A program made the position numbers and the translations under genes. From a virus: a stretch of 64,000 bases of DNA. The notes below the pieces were generated by a model. It did not search any database and was not told the origin of the DNA. It was given only the letters and a program-made list of their open reading frames with translations. This document shows positions 1-35,522 of the stretch, piece by piece (the stretch's first letter is position 1; every line of letters begins with the position of its first letter). The stretch lies in IMG/VR virus record IMGVR_UViG_3300037483_001334. One strand, given 5' to 3'.

Positions 1-261
1 GGAGAAGCATCGGTGAGGAGCGCGCCTGCCAGTCGCGCCGCAGTGCGTGCGTCTATCGACGGCCTGCGTCATGAGGCGGCGCGCGTAGCGCGTGACGCTG
101 AACAGCTTGCGCGCGGCGCAGACGAGACCGAGCGAGACCTGAAGGACGGCAACTGGACGGAGTTGGCGCGGTTCGGATTCGTCACGTACGACGAGGCCGC
201 CATGATGGCCGCCGCGCCGGTACGGAACCGTCGCCGATCGAAGCGTGGCAGCCGTCGATGA
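1..261 (+). CDS. hypothetical protein, possibly 5' partial, Arg-rich C-terminus (RNRRRSKRGSRR)
   Basis: ORF 13..261; its stop overlaps the ATG of the next gene (ATGA at 258-261). Confidence 0.3.
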   Translation, partial: GEASVRSAPASRAAVRASIDGLRHEAARVARDAEQLARGADETERDLKDGNWTELARFGFVTYDEAAMMAAAPVRNRRRSKRGSRR

Positions 262-2669
262 CCTACGTGTCCGCAGCGCTTCGGCCCAACGCCAAGAACG
301 ACGAGACGGAGAAGCGTGATGACGCTCGTCTCGTAGAGAGCGGCCGTGCGCTCGAAGCGCAGGGCTACAAGGTCGGGTTCTTCTGGGTTCCAGTGCAGAA
401 GGTCCCGGCGCTTGCCCGTGAGATCGAGCGGTTGCAAAAGCGTACGAAGCGTCTCGGCCTGAAGCCGATCGTGTTCGAGCAGGGCGCCGCGTACGAGACC
501 AACGTGCCGTCTACGGTCGTCCGCGTGGGCGAGATGGGCGTGTGGAACGAGACGACGCGCATCGGCAGAGGCAAGGTCGTGCCCGTGCTCGTCGCGGGCG
601 AAGAGCCGCGCCTGCGTGGCTGGCGCCTGATCGCGTGCCTGGACTACGACGAGCAGCAGGCCCAGGGAGGCCCCTGGCTACGCGTGGTCCCCGGAGAGAC
701 GCTGCCGCCGGAGTTTCGCACCGTCGATCCGACGCGGTGCGACCACTGCATGACGAAGCGCGACCGCTCCACCGTCTTCGTGCTCGCCCATGACGACGGC
801 AAGTACACGGTGGTCGGCCGCACGTGCCTGGTCGACTTCCTGGGCGGTCACGGCGATCCGCTGCGCACCGTGGGCGCCGCCGAGATGCTCTTCGCCATCT
901 TCGACGTCGCTCGCGGGATGGAGGACTGGGAAGGCGTCGGCGGCGGTGGCAGCCATCTGGCTCGCGCCGTCGACATGGAGGACTTCCTCGCGGTCGTGGT
1001 GCAGCTGATCGAGAAGTACGGGTGGATCTCGCGTGGCGAGGCGTGGAACAAGGGCACGCGCGCGACGGCCGACGACGCGTGGACGGTCTGCATGCCGCAG
1101 AGGCAGATCGAGCACAGCGTCTCGAAGAGAGAGCAGCCCGACGCGAAGAGCCTGGAGGCGGCCAAGCGGATCGTTCAGTGGGCGACCACCGAGTTCGTCG
1201 ACAAAGATCCGACGGCGCTGACGGACTTCGGCTACAACGCGCGCACGACGCTGATCGCGGGAATCGTGACGCAGCGGAGCGCTGGCATCATCGCATCGCT
1301 CGCTTCGGCCTATCAGCGTGCCGAGACGAAGAGGGCCGAAGAGCAGTCAGGCGGCAGGCTCGACGCGTACTACGGCACCGTGGGCGATAGGATCGTGCTG
1401 GAGCTGGACATGCTCGGCGCTCATCCAGTCGACGGTGCATTCGGCAGATCCTACCTGTGCAGGTTCCTGGGAACAGGCGACGCCGCCGGGTACCCGTTCA
1501 AGTGGTTCGGCTCGAACTGGCCGTTCGATTTCCGCGTCGACATTGCCGCTGGGCAGCACGTCCGCGTGAAGGCTACGATCAAGCGGCACCAGGAGTACCG
1601 CGGTCAGAAGGAAACAGAACTGAGCCGCGTGACTCCCGTCGGGCCCGAAGAGCCGAAGAAGCCGAAGCGCACGAGCCGGCCCAAGAAGCCAACAGACGGC
1701 GGTGCACCGCCCGGAGAAGGTATGCAGCAGAACCCCGAGAGCCCCCTCAACGCGCTGCGCAGCGCGATGCGTGCGACCGAAGGCGAAGACGCGAGCCCCG
1801 AGCAGGTCGCCGAAATCGAGCGCGTCGTCGATCGAGAGGAGAGTGACGGCGATCGATTCCAGATCAACGCCCGCATCCAGGAGCGCCGCGCGAGCCGGCC
1901 TGCGAAGCGTGTGAGCCGTCCCAACGGCACGCTGGTGGCGAAGCGTACGAGCCGACCGAACGGCAAGCGCACGAGCCGTACGGGTCATCCGGGCGCGAAG
2001 CGAACGAGCCAGCCGCTGTGGCGGAACCGTGGCTCCGGCGAGACGGAGGACCGAAGGCTCGGACCGGGCGTCATGGGTCACGTCGAGGGTCGTGAGGTCG
2101 ATCCAGATCGCTTCAAGGGCACGCGAGGCCGCGCGATCGACGAGGCCATGGACAAGTACGAGGTCTTCCACGCGAAGAAGCCGTTGGATGTCGTGGACGT
2201 GAAGCACGAACCGCCCGCACGTCTCGTATGCATCGGTGACGCGCACTCGGTCTCGTACAAGACCGACAAGTGGTACGCCGACGGCAAGGACATCGACTAC
2301 AAGCACCTGCATGGCAAGAGCGAGAAGGTGCCGTACGAGATCGGCAAGGGCGTGATGTTCTACGAGAACGCGCATCTCGCTGGTCCTGAGTCCATCCGCG
2401 CGAATGGCACGACGCGCCCGCCGCGCGCGTACCCGAAGGCCTGGACGCGTCTCGGCAAGTTTCAGGGCGCAGATCTGCGCCGCAACGATGGCGAGTTCGA
2501 AGAGGTCGACGCGCGCAAGAGCGCGAAGGATTGCTGGCTGCTGTGTGCGCCGGACGGGAAGATGCTGGCCATCTACTCGCCGCACCAGCAAGACGATGGC
2601 GGCGAGGGCTTCCTCGCTATTATGTGCGGAGGGGGGCTGCGCGTTCTCAAAGACGGAATCGATGGGTGA
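258..2669 (+). CDS. large hypothetical protein (803 aa) with internal KRTSRP/KRTSRPNG repeats
   Basis: Long ORF; ATGA overlap with upstream gene; repeated KRTSR motifs around residues 470-590. Confidence 0.5.
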   Translation: MTYVSAALRPNAKNDETEKRDDARLVESGRALEAQGYKVGFFWVPVQKVPALAREIERLQKRTKRLGLKPIVFEQGAAYETNVPSTVVRVGEMGVWNETTRIGRGKVVPVLVAGEEPRLRGWRLIACLDYDEQQAQGGPWLRVVPGETLPPEFRTVDPTRCDHCMTKRDRSTVFVLAHDDGKYTVVGRTCLVDFLGGHGDPLRTVGAAEMLFAIFDVARGMEDWEGVGGGGSHLARAVDMEDFLAVVVQLIEKYGWISRGEAWNKGTRATADDAWTVCMPQRQIEHSVSKREQPDAKSLEAAKRIVQWATTEFVDKDPTALTDFGYNARTTLIAGIVTQRSAGIIASLASAYQRAETKRAEEQSGGRLDAYYGTVGDRIVLELDMLGAHPVDGAFGRSYLCRFLGTGDAAGYPFKWFGSNWPFDFRVDIAAGQHVRVKATIKRHQEYRGQKETELSRVTPVGPEEPKKPKRTSRPKKPTDGGAPPGEGMQQNPESPLNALRSAMRATEGEDASPEQVAEIERVVDREESDGDRFQINARIQERRASRPAKRVSRPNGTLVAKRTSRPNGKRTSRTGHPGAKRTSQPLWRNRGSGETEDRRLGPGVMGHVEGREVDPDRFKGTRGRAIDEAMDKYEVFHAKKPLDVVDVKHEPPARLVCIGDAHSVSYKTDKWYADGKDIDYKHLHGKSEKVPYEIGKGVMFYENAHLAGPESIRANGTTRPPRAYPKAWTRLGKFQGADLRRNDGEFEEVDARKSAKDCWLLCAPDGKMLAIYSPHQQDDGGEGFLAIMCGGGLRVLKDGIDG

Positions 2670-2672
2670 GGC

Positions 2673-3005
2673 ATGCCAGGCAATAGCGACATCATCGTCC
2701 AGCAGTGGGGCGCGTTCGGCGCTGTTTTCTTGCTGATTTTGCTGCCTTTGGCAGCCTTCACGCTGCGTCAGACGCTGAAGTTGAACGACGTGCAGAACGA
2801 TAGGGTCAACGACGCGAAGCAGGTCGCGACGACGGTCATCGCCGTCATCAAGGACTTCAGTGAAGCTGCTCGCGAGCAGGTGCGGTCGCAGACCGAGCAG
2901 CGCGCGGTGGGCGAGCACGTGGTTGACACGCTCAGCCGTGTTGAGGCCAGAATCGAATCACTGGAGAACGCAGTGAGCAAGATCCGGCTCGGCGGTGGCC
3001 GCTGA
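2673..3005 (+). CDS. small membrane-anchored protein (N-terminal TM, C-terminal coiled-coil-like)
   Basis: ORF with hydrophobic stretch GAFGAVFLLILLPLAAF. Confidence 0.4.
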   Translation: MPGNSDIIVQQWGAFGAVFLLILLPLAAFTLRQTLKLNDVQNDRVNDAKQVATTVIAVIKDFSEAAREQVRSQTEQRAVGEHVVDTLSRVEARIESLENAVSKIRLGGGR

Positions 3006-3041: not shown

Positions 3042-3254
3042 ATGAGCTACTCGACAGACCCGAAAGAGGTGCAGGAGATGCGTGAGCAGCTCGCCGCTGC
3101 TCGCAAGGCTGCTCGCGGCGTGAAGGACTCAGCCCGGAACCTGCGGGCACTTCCCCGAAGCAGGCGCCTCGCAGCTGTCACCGCAGCAGACCTCGAACGG
3201 TACGACTCGCTGCACCCGATGAGCACCGACGACACGACGAAGCGGATGCGTTGA
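3042..3254 (+). CDS. small hypothetical protein
   Basis: ORF 70 aa; GGAGGA-type RBS upstream (cgcaggaggatccc ATG). Confidence 0.35.
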   Translation: MSYSTDPKEVQEMREQLAAARKAARGVKDSARNLRALPRSRRLAAVTAADLERYDSLHPMSTDDTTKRMR

Positions 3255-3556
3255 TCCGTCGGGCACTGGATGCTACGCTCGACCACATGAAGAGGACCAG
3301 TCGGAACAGCCGCCGCCGCGCGAGCCGCCAGGTTCTGAAGGCCTACGACATCGTGCTTGTTTATGATCCCGAGGATCGGTGGTGGTCGGCTGAAGTTCCC
3401 GCTCTTCCTGGGGCGTACGGTCAGGGTCGCACGTCGGCCTCTGCACGAAAGAGCGTGATTTCGGCAGTGAACGATATCCTTGCTCTGCACGCCGAGCGCG
3501 GCCATCGGTTGCACGCCGTGCATCGTGTCCGAATCGAGCGCGCAGGCGCGGCGTGA
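3251..3556 (+). CDS. hicB: HicB-family antitoxin with Arg-rich N-terminal leader (alternative start at 3287, MKRTSRNSRRR)
   Basis: Core YDIVLVYDPEDRWWSAEVPALPGAYGQGRTSASARKSVISAVNDIL matches the HicB/UPF0150 fold; stop overlaps the hicA GTG (GTGA). Confidence 0.75.
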   Translation: MIRRALDATLDHMKRTSRNSRRRASRQVLKAYDIVLVYDPEDRWWSAEVPALPGAYGQGRTSASARKSVISAVNDILALHAERGHRLHAVHRVRIERAGAA

Positions 3557-3729: not shown

Positions 3730-4024
3730 ATCGACATGGGATGCGAAAAAAGATCTTGACCAGCCTTTGGAGCGCCTGTAGCTTCTCCATCGAAGACCAG
3801 GGCGCGCGCCCTCACCTGCTACGGTGGTCCGGCAGGGAGACGTGTGCGCGCAGATGGCTTTGATCTACCGGAAGACTACCGAGAAGGCGGCTCGCTCGTA
3901 CGAGCGTTCGCCCGGCATGGCACCGAACCCCGGTGGCGTCACGCATCTCGCTGTGGTGAATCCAGGTCGACCGCGCAAGCATGTTTCCTCTCTCTTCGAG
4001 AACCCTGAGCGGAGGAAATCGTCG

Positions 4025-6439
4025 ATGGCGTACAACTTCAACGGTCTGCGTGCGGCGATGCGCGCGAATCTCGGTCGCAAGCGCAAGAGCAGGAAGGGCA
4101 AGCGTCGCAGCCGTCCGGCTCCGGGCACCGCGGGTATTCGCCGCAACCGCCACGGTCTGATGACCGTCGTTGCGACTGGTAAGCGTCGGTCGCGTAAGCG
4201 TCGGTCGCGTCGCAACCCGGGCATCATGCAGGCAGCGGCGAACCGTCGGTCGCGTCGCAACAGCCGCCGTCGGGCTTCGCGTCGTCCGCGCCGCAACAGC
4301 CGCCGCCGGGCAAGTCGCCGGGCATCGCGTCGCAACGGTCGGCGTCGGTCGCGTCGCAACGCAGGCGCTCGTCGGCGCTCGCGCCGCAACAGCCGCCGTC
4401 GCGCCTCGCGCCGTCCGCGCCGCAACAGCCGCCGTCGCGCCTCGCGCCGTCCGCGCCGGAACAGCCGTCGCCGTGCAAGTCGCCGGGCATCGCGTCGCAA
4501 CGGTCGGCGTCGGTCGCGTCGCAACGCAGGCGCGAAGAAGCGTGCTTCGAAGAAGCGTGCTTCGAAGAAGCCGGCCGCCAAGCGTCGCAGTCGCAAGGCC
4601 GGAACGCGTAAGCGTGCCTCGAAGAAGCGCGTGAGCAAGTCGCACGTCTCCGGGATGCCGACGTTCCGTTCGTCGCACCACATGTACGGCTCGCCGCTCT
4701 TCGGTCAGATGGCGGCAAACCGCCGTCGCCACTCGCGCCGCAACAGCCGCCGTCGCCACTCGCGCCGCAATCCGATGTACTACGCAGCGGCGAACCGTCG
4801 GCGCTCGCGCCGCAACAGCCGCCGTCGTGCATCGCGCCGTCCGCGCCGCAACAGCCGCCGCCGGGCAAGTCGCCGGGCATCGCGTCGCAACGGTCGGCGT
4901 CGGTCGCGTCGCAACGCAGGCGCGCGTCGTCGCTCGCGCCGCAACAGCCACCGCCGGGCATCGCGCCGTCCGCGCCGCAACAGCCGCCGCCGTCGGTCGC
5001 GTCGCAACAGCCGCCGCCGGGCAAGCCGTCGGTCGTCGCGTCGCAACGGTCGGCGTCGGTCGCGCCGGGTTCATCCGAACTTCCTGACGGGCTCGCGCCA
5101 GACGGTTCTCTATCGTCCGGGCACGAAGCGGAAGTCGACTGTCCTGATCGGCGGTCGACGCGTGAAGGGCTACTCGCGCCGGTTCACCTTCGGCGGTGTC
5201 GCCAAGCGCGCGCGCTCGATGCGCGGCAAGTGGGGTCCTGAGCTGGCTCGACTGATCGGTCAGAAGGCCTCCTCGCGTCGGGCCTCTGCTCAGGCGCGCG
5301 GAGCGCGGGGTCCGCTCGGAGGAATCCGAGCGAACGGTCGTCGTCGGTCGAGGAAGTCTGGTTCCAGGAAGAAGTCTGGCGGTTCGCGAAAGTCCGCCGC
5401 GAGGAAGAACAGGAGGCATTCGATGAGCCGCAAGAACAAGCGCCGTAGCAAGAGGAACCCGATCTACGTCCCGCAGACCACCGGTCTGTCGAAGAACAGG
5501 CGCGGCCGTCGGCTTCGTCGGAACTTCTTCAAGCTGTACGGCAAGGACGTGATCACCGACATCGCGATGCCGGCAGGCTACGCGACCGGCGGCTTCCTGA
5601 TCGCGAACGCGCTGTCGAACCTGGCGGCGAACAGCGATCAGGTCCGCGGCGTGCTCGACGCAGGTCGTGGCGCGGACGCTGCTCTCGCGACCAAGAGCGT
5701 CGCGAACGCGGCGGTCATCGCGGGCGCTCTCGGCCTGGCCGCGTGGGCGAGCAAGTCGGGCAACAAGATGATCACGGAGAACGCGACCCCGGTCCTCACC
5801 GGCATGGGTCTCGCGCTCTTCGCCCGTCTCCTTCGCGGCACGGGCCTCGCGCCGTACCTCGGTCGCCTCGGCGAGTACGTCGAGCAGCCGATGGGCGGCT
5901 TCGGCGAGTACGTCGAGCAGCCGATGCAGGGCCTCGGCGCGTACGTCGACGACCCGAGCCACGGCATGGGTCGTGACGCGACGTACTACGCAGCGGCCGG
6001 TCTCGGTCGCGAGACGTACTACGCAGCGGCCGGCTATCACGAGGGCATCGATCCGGCCAACCAGGAGGGCGTCGACGGCCTCATGGACGTGATGGAAGCT
6101 GCTGGGCAGACGGGCACTCCCGTGATGGAAGCGGCGGCGGGCGTCGGGCAGACGTTCTACGCGGCGGCCGGTCTCGGCGGCTTCGGCGAGTACATCGAGG
6201 AGACGGACGTCGACGGCTGGTACGCCAAGAACCCCAGCTTCGTCCGTCCGGGCAGCATGACCGACGGCGGCCGCATGGAGCCCCCGTTCGCGTCCATCCA
6301 GACGCCGGTCGAGGGCGCGAAGCTCATCACGGGCGAGATGCCGTACGAGCGCAAGATTCCGTCGTCGCTCGTGACCCCCGAGGGTCGTGGCTACGCGGGC
6401 GGCGTGTTCGCGCGTCACCTCTTCGGCGGGATGTTCTAG
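4025..6439 (+). CDS. giant Arg-rich tandem-repeat protein (RRNSRRRASRRP units over ~350 aa) with a Gly/Ala-rich hydrophobic C-terminal domain ending ...RGYAGGVFARHLFGGMF
   Basis: GGAGGA RBS 9 nt before ATG 4025; the minus-strand antisense ORF is taken as artefact; its C-terminal motif is shared with the next gene. Confidence 0.5.
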   Translation: MAYNFNGLRAAMRANLGRKRKSRKGKRRSRPAPGTAGIRRNRHGLMTVVATGKRRSRKRRSRRNPGIMQAAANRRSRRNSRRRASRRPRRNSRRRASRRASRRNGRRRSRRNAGARRRSRRNSRRRASRRPRRNSRRRASRRPRRNSRRRASRRASRRNGRRRSRRNAGAKKRASKKRASKKPAAKRRSRKAGTRKRASKKRVSKSHVSGMPTFRSSHHMYGSPLFGQMAANRRRHSRRNSRRRHSRRNPMYYAAANRRRSRRNSRRRASRRPRRNSRRRASRRASRRNGRRRSRRNAGARRRSRRNSHRRASRRPRRNSRRRRSRRNSRRRASRRSSRRNGRRRSRRVHPNFLTGSRQTVLYRPGTKRKSTVLIGGRRVKGYSRRFTFGGVAKRARSMRGKWGPELARLIGQKASSRRASAQARGARGPLGGIRANGRRRSRKSGSRKKSGGSRKSAARKNRRHSMSRKNKRRSKRNPIYVPQTTGLSKNRRGRRLRRNFFKLYGKDVITDIAMPAGYATGGFLIANALSNLAANSDQVRGVLDAGRGADAALATKSVANAAVIAGALGLAAWASKSGNKMITENATPVLTGMGLALFARLLRGTGLAPYLGRLGEYVEQPMGGFGEYVEQPMQGLGAYVDDPSHGMGRDATYYAAAGLGRETYYAAAGYHEGIDPANQEGVDGLMDVMEAAGQTGTPVMEAAAGVGQTFYAAAGLGGFGEYIEETDVDGWYAKNPSFVRPGSMTDGGRMEPPFASIQTPVEGAKLITGEMPYERKIPSSLVTPEGRGYAGGVFARHLFGGMF
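4190..5075 (+). repeat. tandem 36-nt-period DNA repeats encoding RRNSRRRASRRP-type units
   Basis: cgccgcaacagccgccgtcg... repeated many times with variants, within the CDS. Confidence 0.7.
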
Positions 6440-6468
6440 GCGCTCGCTGAGCATCACGGAGCAAAGTC

Positions 6469-7080
6469 ATGAGCAAGCGTCATAGCCGTTCGCGCCGCAA
6501 TAGGCGACTTCGTCGGAACGCAGAGGGTGCCGATTCCGGCATCATCCAGCGTCTCGTCGTGCCGTCTCTGGTCGGTACGGCCGGCATGATGCTCGCTTCG
6601 TGGCTGAGCGAAAACGTCGTCGGCCGCCTGCTGACTGGCCAGGATCCGAAGGTTCTGATGCTGATCACTGGCGCGGGCGGCGGGGCTCTCGCGGTCGCGA
6701 TGGGCAGTGGCATCGGGATGTCGGACGAGGTCAGTCAGGCGCTCGCGACGGGCATGGGCATCGCTGCGGTGATGCCCTACGTGCCGCGTCTGATGTCGAC
6801 CGTGCAGACGACGCCGACGCAGAACGCGTCAGCTTCGGCAAACATGTCTGGGTTCGGAGATCCACTGATCGACACCGCGCACTACGGCGCGCCGTACCAG
6901 GGGATGCTCGGACTCGGCGGGCCGATGCAGCCGCCGGCCGTGTCCACGGTCATTCCGGTGGATCTCGCGCTTCAGATGAAGGTCAAGAAGCAGATCAGGC
7001 GTATTCGAGAGCCCTTTGCGTCCGCAGATCGCGGATACGCAGGCGGCGTGTTCGCTCGTCAGCTTTTCTCAGGAAGCTGA
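6469..7080 (+). CDS. paralogue of the Arg-rich protein: Arg-rich N-terminus (MSKRHSRSRRNRRLRRN), TM/Gly-rich core, C-terminal RGYAGGVFARQLFSGS
   Basis: Shared N- and C-terminal motifs with 4025..6439. Confidence 0.5.
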   Translation: MSKRHSRSRRNRRLRRNAEGADSGIIQRLVVPSLVGTAGMMLASWLSENVVGRLLTGQDPKVLMLITGAGGGALAVAMGSGIGMSDEVSQALATGMGIAAVMPYVPRLMSTVQTTPTQNASASANMSGFGDPLIDTAHYGAPYQGMLGLGGPMQPPAVSTVIPVDLALQMKVKKQIRRIREPFASADRGYAGGVFARQLFSGS

Positions 7081-7263
7081 CAGCAAAAGTCTTCTCCGTG
7101 TTCCGGTAGCCGACGGGTGAAAGCCTCTTACCGCTGAGAGGTTTCGGGACACGGAGACGATCTAACTCTCGCGAGAGAGAAGGATCGTCTGAACCAGCGG
7201 GCAGTGCGACGAGTGGATCGCATGAAATCTCGACGGAAGAAACCCTAGGGCGTCGTCGAGAGT
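7081..7263 (+). promoter_or_regulatory. highly structured intergenic region with nested inverted repeats (terminator/leader for the downstream structural gene)
   Basis: ccgtgttccgg...ccgggacacgg stem; gacgatc...gatcgtc stem enclosing the palindrome tctcgcgaga. Confidence 0.35.
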
Positions 7264-7275
7264 GTGGAGAGAGAC

Positions 7276-8058
7276 ATGCCGAAGATCGTAGGTACCCGTG
7301 AGCGCGTGCATCAGCCGTTCTACGACTCGCTCATCCGAGTCGACGGATCGGTCGATCTCCGTCAGACCAACCAGGGTCTGTTCGGAGCGGTTCCGAACCG
7401 CGCGCAGCTGTTCGTTCGTCAGGGCGCGGACATCTCGGTGTCCAACCTGACCACGGGCGGCTTCTTCCCGTCGGATCAGACGTACATCACCCTCGCGGTG
7501 CGCGTCTGGACGTACTTCCGCTTCAATGGTGAAGCACCGGTCGTCGTGACGCAGGGCGCCCCGCAGCCGATCGGCGGCGTCGACGGCGTGTTCCCGGACC
7601 GCATCATGCGTGTGCACAAGCTCTACCACCAGACCCAGAACCAGTTCTTCTGGCAGATGGTCGCTGGTGACAAGCCGCAGCTCACGACGTTCACCGCGTA
7701 CACCCCGATGGCGGGTGGTCTCGACGGCTTCTTCGCGGACAGCCGTCTCCCGCGCGCGAACAACGGCGTTCCGACCTCGTCGGCGCTGATGCGTCTGGCT
7801 CGTCCGATCCTGATCCCGCCCCGCCAGGGCTTCCAGGTGATCGCGATCGCCTCGCCGATCGGTCAGACGACCGGCGCGTCGGTCATCGAGCAGCTGAACG
7901 GCCTCGTGCCGGACAACAGCCCGAACGCGATCATCAGCGGTTCCGGTCTCACGACCGGTCTCGCGGTGGGCACCGGCCTGTCGGTCGCGGGCGAGGACGA
8001 CATCGAGAAGGACATCAAGTACGTTTTGGATGGCATTCATTCAAGGGATGTCCTCTGA
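7276..8058 (+). CDS. putative virion structural protein (candidate major capsid protein)
   Basis: Position at the head of the structural module; structured leader upstream; no recognisable enzymatic motifs. Confidence 0.4.
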   Translation: MPKIVGTRERVHQPFYDSLIRVDGSVDLRQTNQGLFGAVPNRAQLFVRQGADISVSNLTTGGFFPSDQTYITLAVRVWTYFRFNGEAPVVVTQGAPQPIGGVDGVFPDRIMRVHKLYHQTQNQFFWQMVAGDKPQLTTFTAYTPMAGGLDGFFADSRLPRANNGVPTSSALMRLARPILIPPRQGFQVIAIASPIGQTTGASVIEQLNGLVPDNSPNAIISGSGLTTGLAVGTGLSVAGEDDIEKDIKYVLDGIHSRDVL

Positions 8059-8171: not shown

Positions 8172-9083
8172 ATGATGTTCAACAGCGACGACATGGCGTG
8201 GTTTGCCGGACTCCTCGATGCCGAGGGCTGCTTCGGGCTGCGTCGCCATACGAAGCGGCCAACGCAGGTTTTGGCATCGACGCACTGCGGCCTGGTCGAC
8301 AAGTCAGCCGTTGAGCATGCGAAGGCGATTGCTGAGCAACTGTACGGGAAGAGGCTGACTCTTCATCGCCGCCTGGTGTCTTCGGATATCGGCACCCGCC
8401 CGTTCTGGTTTTTTCAGATGTCGACCAAGAAGCCGTTGCATGGCTTCGTCCAGCAGATTCTTCCGTATCTACGCGTCAAACGCGGCGAAGCGTTGCTTCA
8501 GTGTGCGTTTTTGGACCGCGCAGCTGCGCGCCGGCACATCGGAGATAACGCTGACTTCGCTCTCTGCGCTCTGTCTCAGAAGATGAAGCACGAAGGCGGC
8601 GTGACCGAGATAGAGGTCACCAGCCTAGTTGCTGATCGATTCGCACACGCTGGAAATCAGTTGGCCTGGCTTGGCGGCTACACTGATGGCGACGGTTCCA
8701 TCTCCACCTGTGACGGTACGTCGTACCTGTCGTACTCGTGCGTGAATCGGCAAGAGCTATCTCGTGCGAACGACCTGATCGCTGCCGTGACGGAACGTCC
8801 GGCGCTTCCGATTTCGGTCCTTCGAAATAAGGAGAAGCCCGAGAGCCGCGATCAGTATCGAGTTCAAGTGCAGGACCAGACGAGACTTTCAAGGCTGTTG
8901 CCGGCGATTCGCCCGTATCTGCGAGTCAAAGATCTACAGGCAAGCGCCGTTATGGCGATGTTCTCGGTTGTGCGCGATGAGCGGGTCGACCTGGAGGCGG
9001 CGGTGAAACTGTTGAACCACGACTCTGACAGGACTGTTGTCGAGATGTTGTCGAAGCGCGATCGTGCTGCGATGGGAATCTGA
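8172..9083 (+). CDS. double-motif LAGLIDADG homing endonuclease (free-standing)
   Basis: LAGLLDAEGCF and LAWLGGYTDGDGSI motifs. Confidence 0.85.
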   Translation: MMFNSDDMAWFAGLLDAEGCFGLRRHTKRPTQVLASTHCGLVDKSAVEHAKAIAEQLYGKRLTLHRRLVSSDIGTRPFWFFQMSTKKPLHGFVQQILPYLRVKRGEALLQCAFLDRAAARRHIGDNADFALCALSQKMKHEGGVTEIEVTSLVADRFAHAGNQLAWLGGYTDGDGSISTCDGTSYLSYSCVNRQELSRANDLIAAVTERPALPISVLRNKEKPESRDQYRVQVQDQTRLSRLLPAIRPYLRVKDLQASAVMAMFSVVRDERVDLEAAVKLLNHDSDRTVVEMLSKRDRAAMGI

Positions 9084-9084
9084 A

Positions 9085-9336
9085 ATGTCTGACGATTCCA
9101 AGCTCGAACCCGATCTCCTTCGCTGCAAGTACATCTGCACGGACTGCACGTCACTCGAAGAGATGGCTACGGCTCTGGAAGAGGTCGCGAAGGACCTTCG
9201 AGAGAAACACGCAGCCGGCTGGACTCTTGGCGGCTCCGTGGCGGACGACTACGCGGAGCTTCTTCCGCCTGGCTACGAGTATCCGGACGAAGATGAGGAT
9301 GAAGACGAGAGCGTCGAACTCGCAGAAGCAAACTGA
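9085..9336 (+). CDS. small acidic protein (C-terminal DEDEDEDE)
   Basis: ATG 4 nt after the upstream stop. Confidence 0.4.
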   Translation: MSDDSKLEPDLLRCKYICTDCTSLEEMATALEEVAKDLREKHAAGWTLGGSVADDYAELLPPGYEYPDEDEDEDESVELAEAN

Positions 9337-9397
9337 TCGGCGTCGTCATTCGACGCTGATCGTCGGCCAGTATGGCCATGAAGTCCCGCACGCTGCG

Positions 9398-9440
9398 GGC
9401 AAACCACCAACGGCCAAAGGGAGAAATCCAACGGCCAAAG
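9398..9440 (+). promoter_or_regulatory. two direct repeats CCAACGGCCAAAGG(G/A) upstream of gene 9451
   Basis: accaccaacggccaaagggagaaatccaacggccaaaggacgg. Confidence 0.3.
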
Positions 9441-9450
9441 GACGGTCACT

Positions 9451-10377
9451 GTGGCGATGAACGATCCGGAAGTCGCGCGCGTACTGCGCGAAATGGAAGA
9501 ACAGCACCGCAAGCTGTTCGCGCGCACGAAGGTCCTCAACGAGCGCTACGGCAAGCTCGCGTCCGAGTTCGAGTCGCAGCAGTCCGAGTTGCAGCAGATG
9601 AAGGCTGCGGTCTCGAAGGCCCAGAAGCGCATTCGCTACATCGAGGACATCCCGGGCAAGCGCGTGCCCTACTTCCTGAACTTCAGCATCGACATCCCGG
9701 GTCCGACCGATCCGTCGCTGACGTTGGCGGGCACGCAGCTCGTCGACAACAAGCAGGTGTCGATGGATGGACCGTTCGTGTGCACCTCGTACATGAGCGC
9801 GTTCCTGATGAGGACGTACTCGCAGGGTCCGTACGGCACCGCCGAAGACGGTCGTCCGAACGATCCGCTTGCGGGGACCGAGGTCATCACGCCGCTGAGC
9901 GGCCGCTTCCGGCCCGTCGCGAGCACCGCAGACCCTTTCGCAGGCGCATACATCGGCGCACGCGTCGGCCCGATCACCGTTGCTGGTGCGCAGGCGGTGC
10001 AGACCTTCCGCCCCGGCGAGGTAGACTTCCTGTTCGAGATCCAGGACAACGCATCGAACCGCAATCGGCAGAATCAGATTCCGATGCCGAGCCGGTACAT
10101 CTTCTCCGAGTTCGACCGGCCGCTATACCTGCCGGTCGGCGACTTCTTCGAGCGCGGCTCGACGGTCACGTGGAAGATGACGCTGACCCGCGACATCGGG
10201 ATGGCCGAGGTCAACTGGGCGACCCTGCCGACCGGCTTCGCAGAAGGCGAGCTGACTCCAGCGCCAGACCCGTCGATCGCGGACGGCGCCGGCCGCCTCG
10301 TGGTCCAGCTCGGCGGCACCGTCTACTTCACGATGTGCGGCTACAAGATTCTCCAGGCTGAGTCCCCGGCGGTCTGA
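9451..10377 (+). CDS. putative virion structural protein (308 aa)
   Basis: ORF with N-terminal coiled coil, in the structural block; the overlapping alternative frame 9372..10361 is Arg-rich artefact. Confidence 0.45.
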   Translation: MAMNDPEVARVLREMEEQHRKLFARTKVLNERYGKLASEFESQQSELQQMKAAVSKAQKRIRYIEDIPGKRVPYFLNFSIDIPGPTDPSLTLAGTQLVDNKQVSMDGPFVCTSYMSAFLMRTYSQGPYGTAEDGRPNDPLAGTEVITPLSGRFRPVASTADPFAGAYIGARVGPITVAGAQAVQTFRPGEVDFLFEIQDNASNRNRQNQIPMPSRYIFSEFDRPLYLPVGDFFERGSTVTWKMTLTRDIGMAEVNWATLPTGFAEGELTPAPDPSIADGAGRLVVQLGGTVYFTMCGYKILQAESPAV

Positions 10378-10385
10378 GGACGACC

Positions 10386-11063
10386 ATGAGAGGTCGTCCC
10401 GGCAGGCTGAATAGCCAAGCTGCATCGCCACTACCTCAAGATGAGGTCGTGCCGGTGGTCGAGAACGTTCGCGTTCTCGACGCCTACTTTCAGTTCCTGC
10501 CCAGCCAGCAGCTGACTTTCTTCCAGCGTCCCTTCTTGGCGAAGTATCCCATTCCGCTCGCCCAAGCGGGCGCACCGCCGTATCCGCGCAACATCCCGCT
10601 GTTGCGCCTGGTAGCTCCGCAGGAAGCCTGCATCGTTCTGAAGAACTCGGTGTTCAAGGTATACGAGCACACCGGGATCGATCCGAACGATGTGGTTGAA
10701 GTCGACCCGACGCGCCTGACCACCGTCTTCGGCTTCCAGCTGAAGGTGGGTGGCCGCGGCACGCTCGACTTCATGACGAACCTCACGAGCAAGGGCGACC
10801 CGGTCGTAACGGCGCAGGGCTTTCAGACCTTTCCCCCGTCTCCTGGGCAGGGCAGCTTCTATCCGTTCGGAGGCGATTCGCAGGTCGGCTTGCAGAACTT
10901 CGCGAGCTACGTGCGACCAGGACAGACCATCGAGGCGGCGGTCATCGCGCTCCGTGCTCCGCCTTTCGAGACGAAGCTGCTCTCGGTGGAGATCAACGGA
11001 TTTCTGATTCCCGAGTTTCAGCTCGATCGCATTCTCACGAGAATGAGCGGAGGTGGAACCTGA
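10386..11063 (+). CDS. putative virion structural protein (225 aa)
   Basis: ORF in structural block. Confidence 0.4.
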   Translation: MRGRPGRLNSQAASPLPQDEVVPVVENVRVLDAYFQFLPSQQLTFFQRPFLAKYPIPLAQAGAPPYPRNIPLLRLVAPQEACIVLKNSVFKVYEHTGIDPNDVVEVDPTRLTTVFGFQLKVGGRGTLDFMTNLTSKGDPVVTAQGFQTFPPSPGQGSFYPFGGDSQVGLQNFASYVRPGQTIEAAVIALRAPPFETKLLSVEINGFLIPEFQLDRILTRMSGGGT

Positions 11064-18858: not shown

Positions 18859-19479
18859 ATGGCCCGACAGCCCCGGCAGAAGCAGATCGAGGACATCCTG
18901 GGCGACGCCCTCGAAGACGGCGTCGAGCATCTCGTAGACCGGGGCTTCGAGTTCTTCCAGCAGGGCGGGTTCCGGGCGGCGCAGAAGTTCAACCAGACGA
19001 CGAAGGCCGCGCTCCCTCCGGAGTACCTCCACGGCACGTTCACCTGCGCGCCATGCACGAAGCAGTTTTCCATCGGCGAGATGGAGCAGGTCCATCCGAC
19101 CAACGGCTACGGCACATGCAAGGTCTGCTACAAGTTCTTGTGGGACTCGGGCGCCGCCAAGCTCCGTGAGCGCGCCAAGGAGCAGGCCAGGCAGGCCGCG
19201 CAGGCCGCCGCACAGGCGGGGGCGCGTCGGGCGCAGCAGGCCGCGCAGCAGGCCGCGCCGGGCTTCGTTGGCCGCCGGCCCTACGAGGTGCTCGGCATCT
19301 CGATCGACGCGACCGAGGCCGAGATCAAGAAGGCGTACAAGAACCTCGCGCTCGAACACCACCCGGACATGGTGTCTGCTGATGCTCCTAGCGGCGTGCG
19401 TGAGCAGAAGCGGCTTCTGTTCGAGGAAGCCACACGCGCGTACAACGCGATGCTGAAGGTCAGGAAGGCGGCCGAGTGA
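18859..19479 (+). CDS. J-domain (DnaJ-like) protein with N-terminal Cys-rich zinc module
   Basis: PYEVLGISIDATEAEIKKAYKNLALEHHPDM contains the HPD motif. Confidence 0.7.
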   Translation: MARQPRQKQIEDILGDALEDGVEHLVDRGFEFFQQGGFRAAQKFNQTTKAALPPEYLHGTFTCAPCTKQFSIGEMEQVHPTNGYGTCKVCYKFLWDSGAAKLRERAKEQARQAAQAAAQAGARRAQQAAQQAAPGFVGRRPYEVLGISIDATEAEIKKAYKNLALEHHPDMVSADAPSGVREQKRLLFEEATRAYNAMLKVRKAAE

Positions 19480-28500: not shown

Positions 28501-30318
28501 ATGGCCGTTCTGATCGCATTCATTCTCGGCGTCGCGCTCGTCGCGACCCCCATCGTTCTCGACGCTGTCGGGATTCACCTCGGCACCGCATCGCAGGTCA
28601 CGATGACCGCATCGGGCGCGGCGATGATCCTGTTCAGCGCAGTCGCGTTCGTGTTCACGCGCCTCTACCACAAGACGAAGGCGTCGGAAGCGTTCGTGCG
28701 CACCGGTCAGGGCGGCGCGAAGGTGATCCAGGACGGCGGAGCGGTCATCGTGCCGTTCATCCACGAGCTGGTGCGCGTCTCGCTGCGCACGCAGCGCCTG
28801 GAGGTCATCCGCGCCAACGAGAATTCGCTAATCACGCACGACAAGCTGCGTGCCGACATCCGCGCCGAGTTCTTCGTGCGCGTCGACCCGGAGGTGAGCG
28901 CGATCCTCCAGGCGGCCCGTTCTCTCGGTGACGGCCAGAGCGATCACGACGCGGTGAAGCTCCTCGTGGAGGACAAGCTCGTCAGCGCGCTCCGCACCGC
29001 CGCGGCGACCAAGACGCTCGAAGAGCTGAACAGCGAGCGGGACAAGTTCCTGGAGAAGGTCACGACGCTGCTCCAGAACGATCTGAAGAACAACGGTCTC
29101 GTGCTGGAGACGGTGACGATCTCGGCGCTCGATCAGACGGATCCGAAGTTCCTCAAGACGAACAACATCTTCGACGCGCAGGGCAGCAAGAAGATCGCCG
29201 AAATCACGCAGGCCAGCCTGACCGAGCGCAACGCGCTGGAGCGCACAGGCGAGGAGACGCGCAAGCAGCAGGACGTCGAGAACCGCAAGCGCATTCTGGC
29301 GATGGAGCAGGACGAGAAGCGCGCGACGGCCACGCAGGAGGCGGAGGTCGCGCAGCTGCGTGCGACGGCAACGCGCGACTCGACGACGAAGGTCATCGAG
29401 ATGGAAAAGGAGACGCAGCTCGCCAACATCGGCAAGCAGCGCGACCTGGAGGTCGCCGAGACCCAGCGTCAGCAGGCCCTGGCCCTCGCGGAAGAGCTGA
29501 AGGGCAAGGAGGTCTCGATCGCGCAGCAGGCCCGTGAGCAGGCGACCCTCGTGGCGCAGCAGCAGAAGGAGGCGGCTGGCGCGACGGCCCAGGCTGAGAA
29601 GGCGGAGCAGCAGCGCATCCTCGCGAAGAAGGAGGCCGAGGTCGCGAGCGCCCAGCAGGAGATCGAGACGATCAAGATCACGCAGCAGGCGGAGCGCGCA
29701 AAGGCGAAGAGCGTCATCGAAGCTCAGGCAGAGGCCCAGCGGTCAGTGCTGAAGAGCAACGCCGAGTCGGACGCGCAGTCGTATCAGATCGAGACGGGTG
29801 CGAAGTCCCGTCGGCTGGCCGCCGACGCCGAGGCCGAGGCGGTGCTCAAGAAGGCGACCGCCGAGACGGACGCTGACAAGATGCGTGCGGGTGCCGAGAA
29901 GGTCCGCGCGATGGTTCCGGTCGACGTGCGCAGGGCAGAGGTCGAGGTCGAGCGAGATCGGGTCGAGACCGTCGTCAAGCCCGAACTGGAAGCCCGCGAG
30001 AAGCACGGCAAGGTCGCGCAGGACTTCGAGATCGCGAAGATGCAGGTCATCGCGGAGAAGGAGGTCCGCATCGCGTTCGCGACGGCGCAGGCGACCGTCT
30101 TCTCGCGCATGGAGGCGAAGTTCTACGGCTCGCCGGCAGACGCCGCGAAGATGCTCGCATCGTTCACCGGCGGCCAGAGCCTGGCGACGACGGTCGAGGG
30201 GCTCGCCGAGAACATGAGCGAGTCGTCGAAGACGTTCGTGGGCGATGCGGTCGTGGCCGTAGGCAGGGCCGCTGTGCAGGCCTTGCAGTCAGCGCCGTCG
30301 GCGCCGAACGGCAAGTAG
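28501..30318 (+). CDS. flotillin/SPFH (band 7) domain protein (YqiK-like)
   Basis: N-terminal TM, SPFH core, long Ala/Glu/Gln-rich coiled coil. Confidence 0.7.
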   Translation: MAVLIAFILGVALVATPIVLDAVGIHLGTASQVTMTASGAAMILFSAVAFVFTRLYHKTKASEAFVRTGQGGAKVIQDGGAVIVPFIHELVRVSLRTQRLEVIRANENSLITHDKLRADIRAEFFVRVDPEVSAILQAARSLGDGQSDHDAVKLLVEDKLVSALRTAAATKTLEELNSERDKFLEKVTTLLQNDLKNNGLVLETVTISALDQTDPKFLKTNNIFDAQGSKKIAEITQASLTERNALERTGEETRKQQDVENRKRILAMEQDEKRATATQEAEVAQLRATATRDSTTKVIEMEKETQLANIGKQRDLEVAETQRQQALALAEELKGKEVSIAQQAREQATLVAQQQKEAAGATAQAEKAEQQRILAKKEAEVASAQQEIETIKITQQAERAKAKSVIEAQAEAQRSVLKSNAESDAQSYQIETGAKSRRLAADAEAEAVLKKATAETDADKMRAGAEKVRAMVPVDVRRAEVEVERDRVETVVKPELEAREKHGKVAQDFEIAKMQVIAEKEVRIAFATAQATVFSRMEAKFYGSPADAAKMLASFTGGQSLATTVEGLAENMSESSKTFVGDAVVAVGRAAVQALQSAPSAPNGK

Positions 30319-34557: not shown

Positions 34558-34854
34558 TCGTCTTGCTTTTTCTTCTTGACGCCCGCTCGAAGGGCTGTCA
34601 GACATACGAGACCCTGGGGCAGTCGCCCCATCGAACGATAACCTCCCCTCCACCATGACAGCCACCAGCATTTCCAGGCTCCCGATGTCGCTGCCGCTCC
34701 GCGGTCGCGATCTCGGAGTCGTGTGCGCCTGGACGGGCTTCTACGCAGCGCACACGAACCAGGAGAAGCCCAGACCGCCCTCGTAGGAAACCGGACACAG
34801 GTCCAGCAACCAACGAGGGCGCCCCGGGAAACCAGGGTGCCCCTTTTCATTTCT

Positions 34855-34936
34855 GCCGGCTGTGAACGATGGACGTTCGGCACGCTGTAAACGTGCTGCC
34901 CTTCGGGGCTCGGGGGTTCGATTCCCTCATCCGGCA
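34855..34936 (+). tRNA. tRNA-Tyr(GTA), type II with long variable arm
   Basis: D-arm GAAC/GTTC, anticodon stem GCACG/CGTGC with loop CTGTAAA, V-arm GCCC-TTCG-GGGC, T-loop TTCGATT; one acceptor mismatch. Confidence 0.7.
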
Positions 34937-34949
34937 TCAGGATAGGACC

Positions 34950-35144: not shown

Positions 35145-35148
35145 CAGC

Positions 35149-35223: not shown

Positions 35224-35225
35224 GC

Positions 35226-35518: not shown

Positions 35519-35522
35519 TCAT

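What the first reader, a model, noticed from the sequence alone, without database searches (positions are those of the whole stretch)
4025..7080. Giant Arg-rich tandem-repeat protein and its paralogue share a C-terminal RGYAGGVFAR(H/Q)LF motif
About 350 residues of near-perfect 12-aa repeats (RRNSRRRASRRP) are followed by a Gly/Ala-rich hydrophobic domain. The next gene repeats the architecture in miniature, with the same terminal peptide. Such a high positive charge suggests nucleic-acid condensation (a protamine-like internal or ejection protein). Repeat-length variation would be expected between isolates.
Basis: seen in the sequence. Interest (0 to 1): 0.6.

Follow-up and report, generated by a model that had tools for sequence, protein, structure and literature searches.

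The report
Giant polycationic nested phage protein
An uncultured giant-phage genome encodes a real 861-residue protein with about 200 net positive charges and conserved ribosome-binding sites inside the gene that point to shorter versions, most likely to bind or condense the phage DNA, and it belongs to an uncharacterised family.

Summary
The feature is real and lies on the + strand.

- **Extent and charge.** The conserved ORF runs 3854..6439 (861 aa, 198 Arg, net charge +206), not from 4025.
- **Repeats.** The 12-aa unit RRNSRRRASRRP occurs 10 times, in two blocks of a roughly 43-55-aa super-repeat. It does not fill 350 residues.
- **Antisense ORF.** The ORF at 3812..6457 is a compositional mirror, not a gene.
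- **Internal starts.** Two Shine-Dalgarno + ATG sites inside the gene (ATG 4025 and 5423) are conserved in diverged relatives. They coincide with gene boundaries in a relative where the same modules are three separate genes. A 338-aa short form resembling p2 is therefore probably made as well.
- **Paralogue.** p2 (6469..7080) is a true paralogue. The C-terminal peptide G(Y/F)AGG(V/L)FARxLF marks 2-4 tandem paralogues. These always sit just upstream of a ~260-aa gene that is more than 70% conserved.
- **Family.** 182 metagenomic members, none matching Pfam, PHROGs, the PDB or any cultured phage.
- **Selection on charge.** Positive charge is kept (+119 to +253) while the composition shifts from Arg-rich to Lys/Ala-rich.

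The best reading is a DNA-binding, charge-neutralising core or assembly protein docked through its C-terminal peptide (confidence 0.4). Whether it is in the virion was not tested.

The parts
3854..6439 (+). p1, full-length ORF (861 aa, 198 R, 45 K, net +206). It combines a polycationic N-terminal part of about 560 aa with a mildly acidic C-terminal part of about 300 aa.
   Evidence: ORF list. The start at 3854 is ATG or GTG at the same site in every relative, and the N-terminal module is conserved. Substitutions against L001 are biased to codon position 3.
3854..3973 (+). Module A, MALIYRKTTEKAARSYERSPGMAPNPGGVTHLAVVNPGRP, the conserved N-terminus. It is a separate 100-aa gene in relative L004.
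   Evidence: Alignments. The L004 gene 8959..9261 is shown.
4009..4027 (+). Internal Shine-Dalgarno GGAGGA, an 8-nt spacer and ATG 4025 (MAYNFNGLRAAMRAN).
   Evidence: A GGAG core lies 6-9 nt upstream of the homologous ATG in 10 loci, although the encoded residues differ. The site corresponds to a gene boundary in L004.
4235..4534 (+). Arg/Ser repeat block 1 (aa 128-227), made of RRNSRRRASRR(P/A) 12-mers and SRRNGRRRSRRNAGA units.
4535..4639 (+). Lys-rich basic segment, KKRASKKRASKKPAAKRRSRKAGTRKRASKKRVSK.
   Evidence: Relatives carry long Lys/Ala-rich tracts in this position.
4640..4717 (+). Short conserved non-repeat module, SHVSGMPTFRSSHHMYGSPLF. It is a reduced counterpart of the GREYIDKYL...MP...YP module of relatives.
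   Evidence: Alignments.
4718..5068 (+). Arg/Ser repeat block 2 (aa 289-405). It includes the punctuation motif RRNPMYYAAANRRR.
   Evidence: The 206-nt segment at 4799-5004 is 91% identical to 4244-4449.
5072..5260 (+). Module E, ...QTVLYRPGTKRKSTVLIGGRRVKGYSRRFTFGGVAKRA.... The family consensus is QLVEYGPKS..GYPVLVP.HV..VRKFRFGGAAKDAH.
5411..5425 (+). Internal Shine-Dalgarno AGGAGG, a 6-nt spacer and ATG 5423.
   Evidence: This is the only RR dipeptide coded AGG-AGG among the 85 in p1. The same single site is found in L001 (1 of 53), L003 (1 of 68), L005 (1 of 66), L009 (1 of 26) and L010 (1 of 59). It is also the start that public gene callers chose (P0001-P0005).
5423..6439 (+). Predicted short isoform (338 aa) with the same architecture as p2. 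It is a stand-alone gene (307 aa) in relative L004.
5549..5839 (+). Three Ala/Gly-rich hydrophobic helices, predicted to form a helical bundle.
   Evidence: The AF2 model has pLDDT 72-88 over these helices. Hydropathy is below the usual transmembrane threshold across 63 members.
5870..6208 (+). Region predicted to be disordered, with short repeated motifs GEYVEQPMxGxG and TYYAAAGLG and the conserved block EGIDPANQEGVDGLMDVMEAAG.
6386..6436 (+). C-terminal peptide RGYAGGVFARHLFGGMF.
   Evidence: In every relative the motif lies 1-6 residues from the stop codon. Within the window only p1 and p2 carry it.
6469..7080 (+). p2, a 203-aa paralogue with a basic N-terminus, hydrophobic helices and the C-terminal peptide RGYAGGVFARQLFSGS (7030..7077).
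   Evidence: It is conserved next to p1 in L001, L003, L005 and L009.
3812..6457 (-). Antisense ORF. It is not a gene but a mirror of the CGN/GCN-rich sense frame.
   Evidence: Its codon position 1 has GC 0.9, which corresponds to sense GC3. Substitutions fall on its position 1. The antisense frame is broken in L001.
7276..8058 (+). Neighbouring ~260-aa gene, beta-rich and extremely conserved. It always follows the p1/p2 paralogues and is the candidate docking partner. Its function is unknown.

Best explanation
p1 is a multi-module protein of an uncultured, high-GC jumbo-phage clade. Its N-terminal ~560 residues form a mostly low-complexity polycation (net about +220) that binds nucleic acid by charge. 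Its C-terminal ~300 residues form an Ala/Gly-rich three-helix bundle, followed by a flexible stretch of short repeated motifs (GEYVxQPxxGxG, TxYAAAG) and an invariant terminal peptide, G(Y/F)AGG(V/L)FARxLF.

That terminal peptide is shared with p2 and with further tandem paralogues. It most likely docks all of them onto one partner. The obvious candidate is the product of the highly conserved ~260-aa gene that always follows them.

The gene is probably read from three in-frame starts (3854, 4025, 5423). This would give long polycationic forms and a 338-aa short form resembling p2, which would co-assemble.

The proposed role is to tether and neutralise or condense phage DNA inside the particle or during its assembly. 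This is a large protamine-like core protein that works in the way ascovirus P64 or the microvirus J protein does.

Shown here:
- coding strand and gene extent
- family and module structure
- conservation of charge
- paralogy
- the conserved internal Shine-Dalgarno + ATG sites
- synteny with the ~260-aa gene

Inferred, not shown:
- DNA binding
- the docking partner
- presence in the virion
- actual use of the internal starts
For: - **Coding strand and extent:**
- **Family:** 94 and then 182 homologues, all metagenomic; full-length members are 750-950 aa.
- **Shared module order:** the same order of modules appears in relatives that are only 35-48% identical.
- **Charge is conserved, composition is not:** N-terminal net charge is +119 to +253 and C-terminal net charge is -6 to -16, while R/(R+K) ranges from 0.48 to 0.81. 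Relatives carry Lys/Ala-rich, H1-like tracts, and JGI labels one member 'histone H1/5'.
- **Terminal peptide:** it always lies 1-6 residues from the stop, in 2-4 tandem paralogues directly upstream of the ~260-aa gene.
- **Synteny reaches distant relatives:** it holds in L019 and L021, where the ~260-aa protein is only 32-34% identical.
- **Internal starts:** a unique AGG-AGG-N6-ATG is conserved at 5423 and a GGAG core before 4025. In L004 the same three parts are three separate genes in three different frames.
- **Helical bundle:** AF2 pLDDT is 72-88 over the helices, and the motif region is predicted to be disordered.
- **Precedent:** a large tandem Arg/Ser-repeat protein that condenses a viral genome is known, namely ascovirus P64, with 14 repeats of SPSQRRSTS(V/K)(A/S)RR (PMC6163548).
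Against: - Nothing here places the protein in virions.
- No capsid, portal, terminase or tail gene could be recognised near it, in the 64-kb window or in relatives. The 'structural module' context is therefore assumed, not shown.
- The fold of the ~260-aa neighbour is unresolved (pLDDT 51).
- In L004 the polycation is much smaller (total about +63) and is not covalently linked to the domain carrying the peptide. A covalent DNA-to-partner tether is therefore not obligatory.
- Upstream neighbours look non-structural. The 803-aa protein's homologue in phage Tunturi_5 is annotated RecT-like, and a HicB-like gene lies nearby.
- Tailed phages generally package naked DNA (established knowledge), so a polycation this large would be unusual for them.
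Confidence: 0.4

Rival explanations
1. A non-virion, intracellular nucleic-acid organiser. In this reading the polycation, together with its sticky short motifs, condenses or sequesters host or phage DNA or RNA in the infected cell. That could mean nucleoid compaction or a replication or assembly condensate. The C-terminal peptide would recruit the paralogues to the same body.
For: - The protein is an extreme polycation with low-complexity repeats and a motif region predicted to be disordered.
- The surrounding genes have non-structural annotations: the 803-aa protein's homologue is annotated RecT-like, and there are HicB-like, DnaJ, SPFH and Ro60 genes.
- The polycation can be a separate gene, as in L004.
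Against: - The tight, clade-wide linkage to the extremely conserved ~260-aa and ~310-aa genes, and the tandem paralogue families, are more typical of particle components.
- No enzymatic or regulatory domain is present.
Confidence: 0.2
2. An integral inner-membrane protein, either lysis-related or anchoring DNA to the membrane. The basic N-terminus would stay in the cytoplasm (positive-inside rule). The hydrophobic helices would span the membrane and the acidic C-terminal part would lie in the periplasm. Long and short forms would act like an antiholin and holin made from a dual-start gene.
For: - There are three hydrophobic helices directly after a basic segment.
- In-frame alternative starts add positive charge at the N-terminus.
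- A small protein with a hydrophobic N-terminal segment (seen in its sequence) lies upstream at 2673..3005. It has a weak Rz-like spanin match (phrog_89, E=0.005).
Against: - Across 63 members the longest uncharged runs have medians of 15, 16 and 12 residues. The median maximum 19-residue hydropathy is 1.35, 1.36 and 0.98, below the usual transmembrane threshold.
- Most members have an Arg inside helix 1.
- At 300-950 aa with a ~200-aa C-terminal tail, the proteins are unlike holins.
- No endolysin gene is adjacent.
Confidence: 0.12
3. A scaffolding or assembly chaperone that is not retained in the mature particle. The C-terminal peptide would bind the shell protein during assembly, as the C-terminus of the P22 scaffolding protein or an encapsulin cargo-loading peptide does. 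The protein would then leave or be degraded, and the polycation would only help nucleate assembly.
For: - The paralogues lie directly upstream of the most conserved gene of the block.
- They share a C-terminal peptide.
- The gene appears to give nested in-frame products, as in lambda C/Nu3 (established knowledge).
Against: - Known scaffolding proteins are acidic or neutral helical proteins, not polycations of +200 (established knowledge).
- The shell identity of the ~260-aa protein is not established.
Confidence: 0.13
4. The long ORF is an artefact. Either the real gene is the antisense ORF 3812..6457, or only the 338-aa C-terminal gene that the public annotation calls is real, and the Arg-rich region is non-coding repeat DNA or a mis-assembly.
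For: - Public gene calls start at 5423, and antisense ORFs are called over the repeat region.
- An independent short-read assembly breaks inside the array.
Against: - The + frame stays open for 740-1000 codons in more than 10 diverged relatives, and the indels are in frame.
- Substitutions favour codon position 3 inside the Arg-rich part.
- Non-repeat modules conserved at protein level are embedded in it.
- Other gene callers did call products of 800-950 aa.
- The antisense frame is not conserved.
Confidence: 0.03

Closest known systems
Ascovirus P64 (a large cationic virion protein that condenses genomic DNA; PMC6163548)
   Same: Both are large proteins (64 kDa for P64, about 95 kDa here) from large dsDNA viruses. 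Both have tandem Arg/Ser-rich repeats of 12-13 residues (14 copies of SPSQRRSTS(V/K)(A/S)RR against 10 copies of RRNSRRRASRRP) joined to a non-repeat domain.
   Different: There is no sequence homology. P64's other domain is the vs2C-ad motif (pfam08793), which is absent here. In P64 the repeats are C-terminal, here they are N-terminal. The host is an insect virus rather than a phage. DNA condensation and virion abundance are demonstrated for P64 and only inferred here.
Protamine-like viral core proteins (baculovirus P6.9; adenovirus VII and mu)
   Same: Arg-rich composition with interspersed Ser (RRxS-like spacing), and a presumed charge-neutralising role.
   Different: Those proteins are small (under 20 kDa) and free-standing. 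p1 is 861 aa with six conserved non-repeat modules, a helical domain and a docking peptide. Regulation by phosphorylation, as in P6.9, cannot be assumed in a phage.
Microviridae DNA-binding protein J
   Different: J is 20-40 residues long and belongs to a 5-kb ssDNA phage. Here the protein is 861 aa in a roughly 300-kb dsDNA genome with 30 tRNA genes. There is no homology.
Carboxysome scaffold CsoS2, and encapsulin or microcompartment targeting peptides
   Same: These are basic, intrinsically disordered, repetitive proteins with short repeated shell-binding motifs and a C-terminal anchor. CsoS2 is made as long and short isoforms from one gene. Cargo genes with shared terminal peptides lie upstream of the shell gene (established knowledge).
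   Different: CsoS2 isoforms arise by frameshifting, not by internal initiation. The cargo there is an enzyme, not DNA. There is no sequence similarity, and the shell role of the ~260-aa protein is unproven.
Internal head and ejection protein families of giant phages (T4 IPI-III, the phiKZ inner-body paralogues)
   Same: Tandem paralogue families encoded in phage genomes, basic in T4, packaged with the DNA (established knowledge).
   Different: No homology was found by PHROGs or tblastn. T4 uses an N-terminal capsid-targeting sequence that is cleaved off by the prohead protease, whereas here the shared peptide is C-terminal. None of these proteins approaches +200 net charge.
Linker histone H1/H5 and bacterial H1-like proteins (chlamydial Hc2, AlgP)
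   Same: Lys/Ala-rich tandem repeats occur in several family members (L009, L012-L016, P0251), and JGI names one member 'histone H1/5'. Repeat-number polymorphism is known for Hc2 (established knowledge).
   Different: No linker-histone globular domain is found (no Pfam match). The resemblance is one of composition only.

Membership tests
Ascovirus P64 family | N-terminal vs2C-ad motifs (pfam08793) | tested here: not met
   The Pfam scan of p1 returned no family at E<=0.01. All 182 homologues have no precomputed Pfam domain.
Ascovirus P64 family | Multiple tandem Arg/Ser-rich basic repeats | tested here: met
   There are 10 copies of RRNSRRRASRR(P/A) and 3 copies of SRRNGRRRSRRNAGA.
Ascovirus P64 family | Abundant virion protein that binds and condenses genomic DNA | not testable with these tools
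   This needs proteomics and DNA-binding assays.
Linker histone H1/H5 (the JGI label on P0251) | Winged-helix globular domain (Pfam Linker_histone) | tested here: not met
   p1 has no Pfam match, and P0251 has no precomputed Pfam domain. Only the Lys/Ala-rich composition resembles H1.
Holin/antiholin dual-start genes | Canonical transmembrane helices | tested here: not met
   The median longest uncharged run is 15, 16 and 12 residues, and the median maximum 19-residue hydropathy is 1.35, 1.36 and 0.98 across 63 members.
Holin/antiholin dual-start genes | Two in-frame starts giving products that differ at a positively charged N-terminus | tested here: inconclusive
   Conserved internal Shine-Dalgarno + ATG sites exist. 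They are hundreds of codons apart, however, not 1-3 codons, and their use is not demonstrated.
Phage scaffolding proteins / cargo with shell-targeting peptides | Shared terminal peptide on proteins encoded next to the shell-protein gene | tested here: inconclusive
   The shared C-terminal peptide and its adjacency to the ~260-aa gene are shown. That gene could not be identified as a capsid protein.
Known phage protein families (PHROGs) and cultured phages | Significant profile or tblastn match | tested here: not met
   No PHROG match for p1 or p2. No tblastn match in 50,697 phage records at E<=0.1. No profile match to the PDB. No fold match in BFVD.
Microviridae J protein | Small (about 20-40 aa) basic protein of a microvirus genome | tested here: not met
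   p1 is 861 aa. The contig is 66.7 kb with 30 tRNA genes, and its relative is 297.7 kb.

The most novel reading that the evidence does not exclude
p1 could be the DNA-organising scaffold of a giant phage particle of an undescribed type. In this reading, one fused gene yields several isoforms by internal initiation, and in some relatives three separate genes do the same job. The isoforms would link a ~300-kb genome to the inside of the shell through repeated short motifs and a C-terminal docking peptide. That would make it a CsoS2-like or protamine-like packaging principle not known in bacteriophages. The clade's most conserved particle-candidate genes show no detectable HK97-type signature, so its architecture might itself be unusual.
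Probability: 0.15. Interest if true: 0.85.

Novelty: new variant of a known kind. Interest (0 to 1): 0.6.

Why it matters
- **DNA packaging.** Tailed phages are thought to package essentially naked DNA and to rely on small counter-ions. A conserved phage protein with about +200 net charge, in amounts that vary between relatives, would mean some giant phages neutralise or organise their genome with a dedicated polycation, as large eukaryotic viruses do. That would bear on packaging pressure, ejection and capsid-size evolution.
- **Annotation.** Standard gene callers truncate this gene to 338 aa and call spurious antisense genes across the Arg-rich region. The family is therefore systematically mis-annotated in public metagenomes.
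- **Gene fusion and fission.** The conserved internal ribosome-binding sites, matched by a three-gene version in a relative, give a clear example in which translation starts appear to be retained across a fusion or fission.

Tried and rejected
Searches that found nothing:
- Megablast of 3000-9000 against cultured phages.
- tblastn against cultured phages with the p1 C-terminal domain, p2, the 264-aa, 308-aa and 973-aa proteins.
- Pfam and PHROGs on p1, p2 and about 45 neighbouring or relatives' proteins. The only matches were LAGLIDADG, HNH, HicB-like, DnaJ, SPFH, Ro60, a nucleotidyltransferase, an exoribonuclease and families of unknown function. No structural gene was recognised.
- PDB sequence and profile searches with p1, the 264-aa family and its extended family.
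- The bacterial genome collection gave only three short MAG contigs from different phyla, which gives no host.
- NCBI-sourced cluster members are nameless metagenome WGS entries.
- Literature searches found no described phage counterpart, only P64 and other eukaryotic-virus analogues.

Structure and fold work:
- AF2 on the p1 C-terminal domain gave only a three-helix bundle plus disorder, with no fold match in BFVD.
- An exhaustive profile search with the 264-aa family found 92 more distant relatives. None of the 43 scanned matched a known Pfam or PHROG capsid family.

Ideas rejected:
- That the 264-aa gene and the ORF after the LAGLIDADG gene are halves of one split gene. They are separate, intact genes in L003 and L005. 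I had also first scanned the wrong frame (9372..10361); the real gene is 9451..10377.
- That the antisense ORF is the gene.
- That the helices are canonical transmembrane segments.

Full report
**What the window is**

The window has about 64% G+C. It carries 30 tRNA genes (34.8-49.8 kb), homing endonucleases and a Ro60/TROVE gene, and most of its genes are on the + strand. The upstream 803-aa protein (258..2669) matches phrog_2319 and proteins of 230-310-kb Vibrio and Tunturiibacter phages. The source contig is 66.7 kb, and a relative 88% identical in the p1 C-terminal domain lies on a 297.7-kb IMG/VR contig. The window therefore comes from an uncultured jumbo phage. No part of 3000-9000 matches any of 50,697 cultured-phage records at DNA level, and none of the five proteins queried (p1 C-terminal domain, p2, and the 264-, 308- and 973-aa proteins) has a tblastn match there.

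**Checking the observation**

The + strand ORF is open from 3824 to 6439. Against the relative L001, nucleotide differences fall mainly on + frame codon position 3 in every segment, including the Arg-rich part. For example, in one Arg-rich segment the counts at positions 1, 2 and 3 are 11, 9 and 41. GC3 reaches 0.89 in the C-terminal half.

Position 1 of the antisense ORF 3812..6457 coincides with sense position 3, and in L001 the antisense frame is broken into pieces. The antisense ORF is therefore a compositional mirror.

The 12-aa unit RRNSRRRASRRP occurs 10 times (at most 2 mismatches), with three 15-aa SRRNGRRRSRRNAGA units. They form four copies of a roughly 43-55-aa super-repeat in two blocks, separated by a Lys-rich stretch and a conserved non-repeat module. 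At DNA level, a 206-nt segment at 4244-4449 recurs at 4799-5004 with 91% identity. The description '350 residues of near-perfect 12-aa repeats' overstates this.

L001 lacks 121 residues, and the missing residues lie in in-frame indels within the arrays. Repeat-length variation between relatives is therefore real. An independent Logan assembly is identical over 4963..7528 but ends inside the array, so the copy number in this window is not independently supported.

**Gene extent and family**

A search with the C-terminal 324 residues found 94 homologues, and a profile search found 182. All are metagenomic and none has a Pfam domain. Many database entries are truncated. The window's own gene is on record as a 338-aa product starting at 5423, and antisense ORFs are called over the Arg-rich region in L001, L003 and L005.

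Reading the DNA of 12 relatives shows open frames of 740-1000 codons. Other callers did report products of 750-950 aa. All share one module order:

1. MALVYK..AR.YERS.GMEPN
2. NPFQWI...ARLY.VDE.GT (lost in the window and in L001)
3. MAYNI.ALRRAMR
4. a variable basic tract
5. GREYIDKYL..MP
6. Arg/Ser arrays punctuated by RN.KYVVMNRR
7. QLVEYGPKS..GYPVLVP.HV..VRKFRFGGAAKDAH
8. a last basic tract
9. three Ala/Gly-rich helices
10. GEYVxQPxSGxG and TxYAAAG repeats
11. EGVDPADQ..VDGLMDVMEAAAG
12. ..TP.D.A...SLVTPEG(K/R)G(Y/F)AGG(L/V)FARxLFxGMF

The conserved first module puts the start at ATG 3854, which is ATG or GTG at the same site in all relatives. p1 is therefore 861 aa, with 198 Arg, 45 Lys and net charge +206.

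**Charge is conserved, not sequence**

In the 17 full-length members where the boundary could be placed, the N-terminal part carries +119 to +253 and the C-terminal part -6 to -16. Across the 19 members examined, the Arg fraction of basic residues runs from 0.48 to 0.81. Several relatives replace the Arg/Ser arrays with Lys/Ala-rich tracts such as AKAKAKTSKPK or ASKKAASRAKKAASKAK, and JGI labels one member 'histone H1/5'. This pattern is what selection for polycationic character would produce, and it is the best available argument for binding to a polyanion.

**Nested starts**

Upstream of the ATG at 4025, every relative keeps a GGAG core 6-9 nt away, although the encoded residues differ (RRKSS, RRRVS, RRSG, GSSS, GRRP, GGDDG).

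At 5411-5416 lies AGGAGG, 6 nt before ATG 5423. It encodes the only one of the 85 RR dipeptides in p1 that uses the rare AGG-AGG codon pair. The same single site is found in L001 (1 of 53), L003 (1 of 68), L005 (1 of 66), L009 (1 of 26) and L010 (1 of 59), and L007 has GGAGG at that position. The hexamer itself is not rare in the window (35 copies). The evidence is its positional conservation in rare codons.

In relative L004, whose 264-aa homologue is 72% identical, the same material is three separate genes in three different frames:
- 8959..9261: module A plus a basic tail
- 9276..9941: Arg arrays plus the QLVE...FKLGG module, net +45
- 10001..10924: the 307-aa short form

The two boundaries correspond to the two internal Shine-Dalgarno + ATG sites of the window gene. 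I conclude that p1 is a fused ORF that very probably still initiates internally. This would give a 338-aa form with the same layout as p2. The conclusion rests on sequence and has not been tested on protein.

**The C-terminal domain, p2 and the shared peptide**

AF2 with a 63-sequence alignment gives three long helices (pLDDT 72-88) and little else. Across the family, the helices have median uncharged runs of 15, 16 and 12 residues and median 19-residue hydropathy of 1.35, 1.36 and 0.98, and most members have an Arg inside helix 1. They do not look like canonical membrane spans, although peripheral or conditional membrane activity is not excluded.

p2 aligns with p1 over the last ~94 residues (36% identity, E=1e-8) and weakly over the helices. 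It is conserved next to p1 in L001, L003, L005 and L009. Its homologues in L003 also carry the GEYV and YAAAG motifs.

The terminal peptide always lies 1-6 residues from the stop codon. In the window it occurs only in p1 and p2. It is found in 2-4 tandem paralogues elsewhere: two full matches plus a degenerate third in L004, and four in L007.

**Context**

The paralogues are always followed by a ~260-aa gene. In the window this is 7276..8058, with 245 homologues, of which the best 120 listed are more than 70% identical. A ~310-aa gene with an N-terminal coiled coil comes next (9451..10377), at 57-64% identity across the clade. The p1 C-terminal domain, by contrast, is only 36-48% identical.

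The arrangement persists in distant relatives. In L019 a 647-aa polycation with helices and GEYYQPTSGFG/EQAAAGMG repeats precedes a 256-aa homologue. L021 has two tandem copies of the ~260-aa gene.

**Mechanism**

The best-supported reading, at confidence 0.4, has three parts:
- a polycationic arm that binds DNA;
- a helical domain that lets the long form, the short form and p2 assemble together;
- a shared C-terminal peptide, perhaps helped by the repeated GEYV and YAAAG motifs, that docks them on a common partner, most likely the product of the adjacent conserved gene.

In this reading the protein acts as a genome-tethering or genome-condensing core or assembly protein.

The closest functional precedent is ascovirus P64, a 64-kDa virion protein with 14 tandem Arg/Ser repeats shown to condense genomic DNA (PMC6163548). 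The J protein of microviruses and the carboxysome scaffold CsoS2 share parts of the same logic (established knowledge). p1 is not a member of any of these families. The membership tests fail on the defining domains.

The rivals are:
- a non-virion DNA or RNA organiser in the infected cell (0.2);
- a transient scaffold (0.13);
- a membrane or lysis protein (0.12);
- an annotation or assembly artefact (0.03).

The split, lower-charge version in L004 argues against an obligatory covalent tether.

**Verdict**

The gene is real, and the family is conserved and uncharacterised. The 'protamine-like' idea is reasonable but unproven. The new elements found here are the true gene extent, the modular family, charge conservation across changes in composition, the conserved internal starts matched by a three-gene version, and the synteny with an extremely conserved unknown gene.

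Noticed in passing
window 47133..48941 and 48949..49012: A Ro60/TROVE + vWA protein (Pfam E=4.5e-59 and 2.1e-45) is followed, 8 nt after its stop, by an Rfam match above the gathering score to RF01656 (nematode sRNA ceN72-3/ceN74-2; 40.3 bits against a cut-off of 38). From my own knowledge, that family belongs to the stem-bulge RNAs, which are Y-RNA relatives. If so, this looks like a phage-borne Ro60 plus Y-RNA-like module, sitting inside the tRNA array.
   Followed up: no
window 34854..49833: ARAGORN finds an array of 30 tRNA genes, including four tRNA-Arg genes (CCT, TCT, ACG, CCG). Rfam adds four tRNA-like hits that ARAGORN missed, at 35719-35791, 36460-36532, 38574-38644 and 39982-40054. 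The Arg codons of p1 are 76% CGC or CGT, which tRNA-Arg(ACG) would read.
   Followed up: partly
L001 11868..12700 (relative); window 8172..9083: In the 297.7-kb relative, the highly conserved 264-aa gene is interrupted after MPKIVGTRERVHQP by an insert of about 750 nt. The insert carries a LAGLIDADG ORF and gives a weak group I intron match (RF00028, E=0.005, below the gathering score). In the window the gene is intact, and a LAGLIDADG ORF lies free-standing just downstream. Homing elements have repeatedly targeted this gene block.
   Followed up: partly
window 7276..8058: This ~260-aa protein has 245 metagenomic homologues. The best 120 listed are more than 70% identical, and 92 more distant relatives were found. 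It has no Pfam, PHROG or PDB match, and its fold is unresolved but beta-rich. It is duplicated in tandem in relative L021. It is a strong candidate for a major particle protein of an undescribed type.
   Followed up: partly
L001 7993..9584; L003 8836..10002; L005 8351..9408 (relatives); the window gene on record as P0001: Public gene calls truncate the p1 family to its last ~338 aa and annotate spurious antisense genes across the Arg-rich coding region. This is a systematic gene-calling error in high-GC, CGN-rich repeats.
   Followed up: yes
window 3800..3853 and the homologous sites in relatives: The 30 nt upstream of the p1 start are conserved at nucleotide level in relatives whose proteins are only 35-48% identical (consensus roughly GGGTCGAGCAGGCGAxGTGCGTCCAAATGGCC). 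This could be a promoter, an operator or a 5'-UTR element.
   Followed up: no
window 28501..30318, 18859..19479, 3251..3556, 2673..3005: Other genes noted in the window are a 605-aa SPFH/Band-7 protein, a DnaJ-domain protein that is syntenic in relatives, a HicB-like/UPF0150 protein, and a small protein with a hydrophobic N-terminal segment that has a weak Rz-like spanin match. None has an evident partner gene nearby.
   Followed up: no
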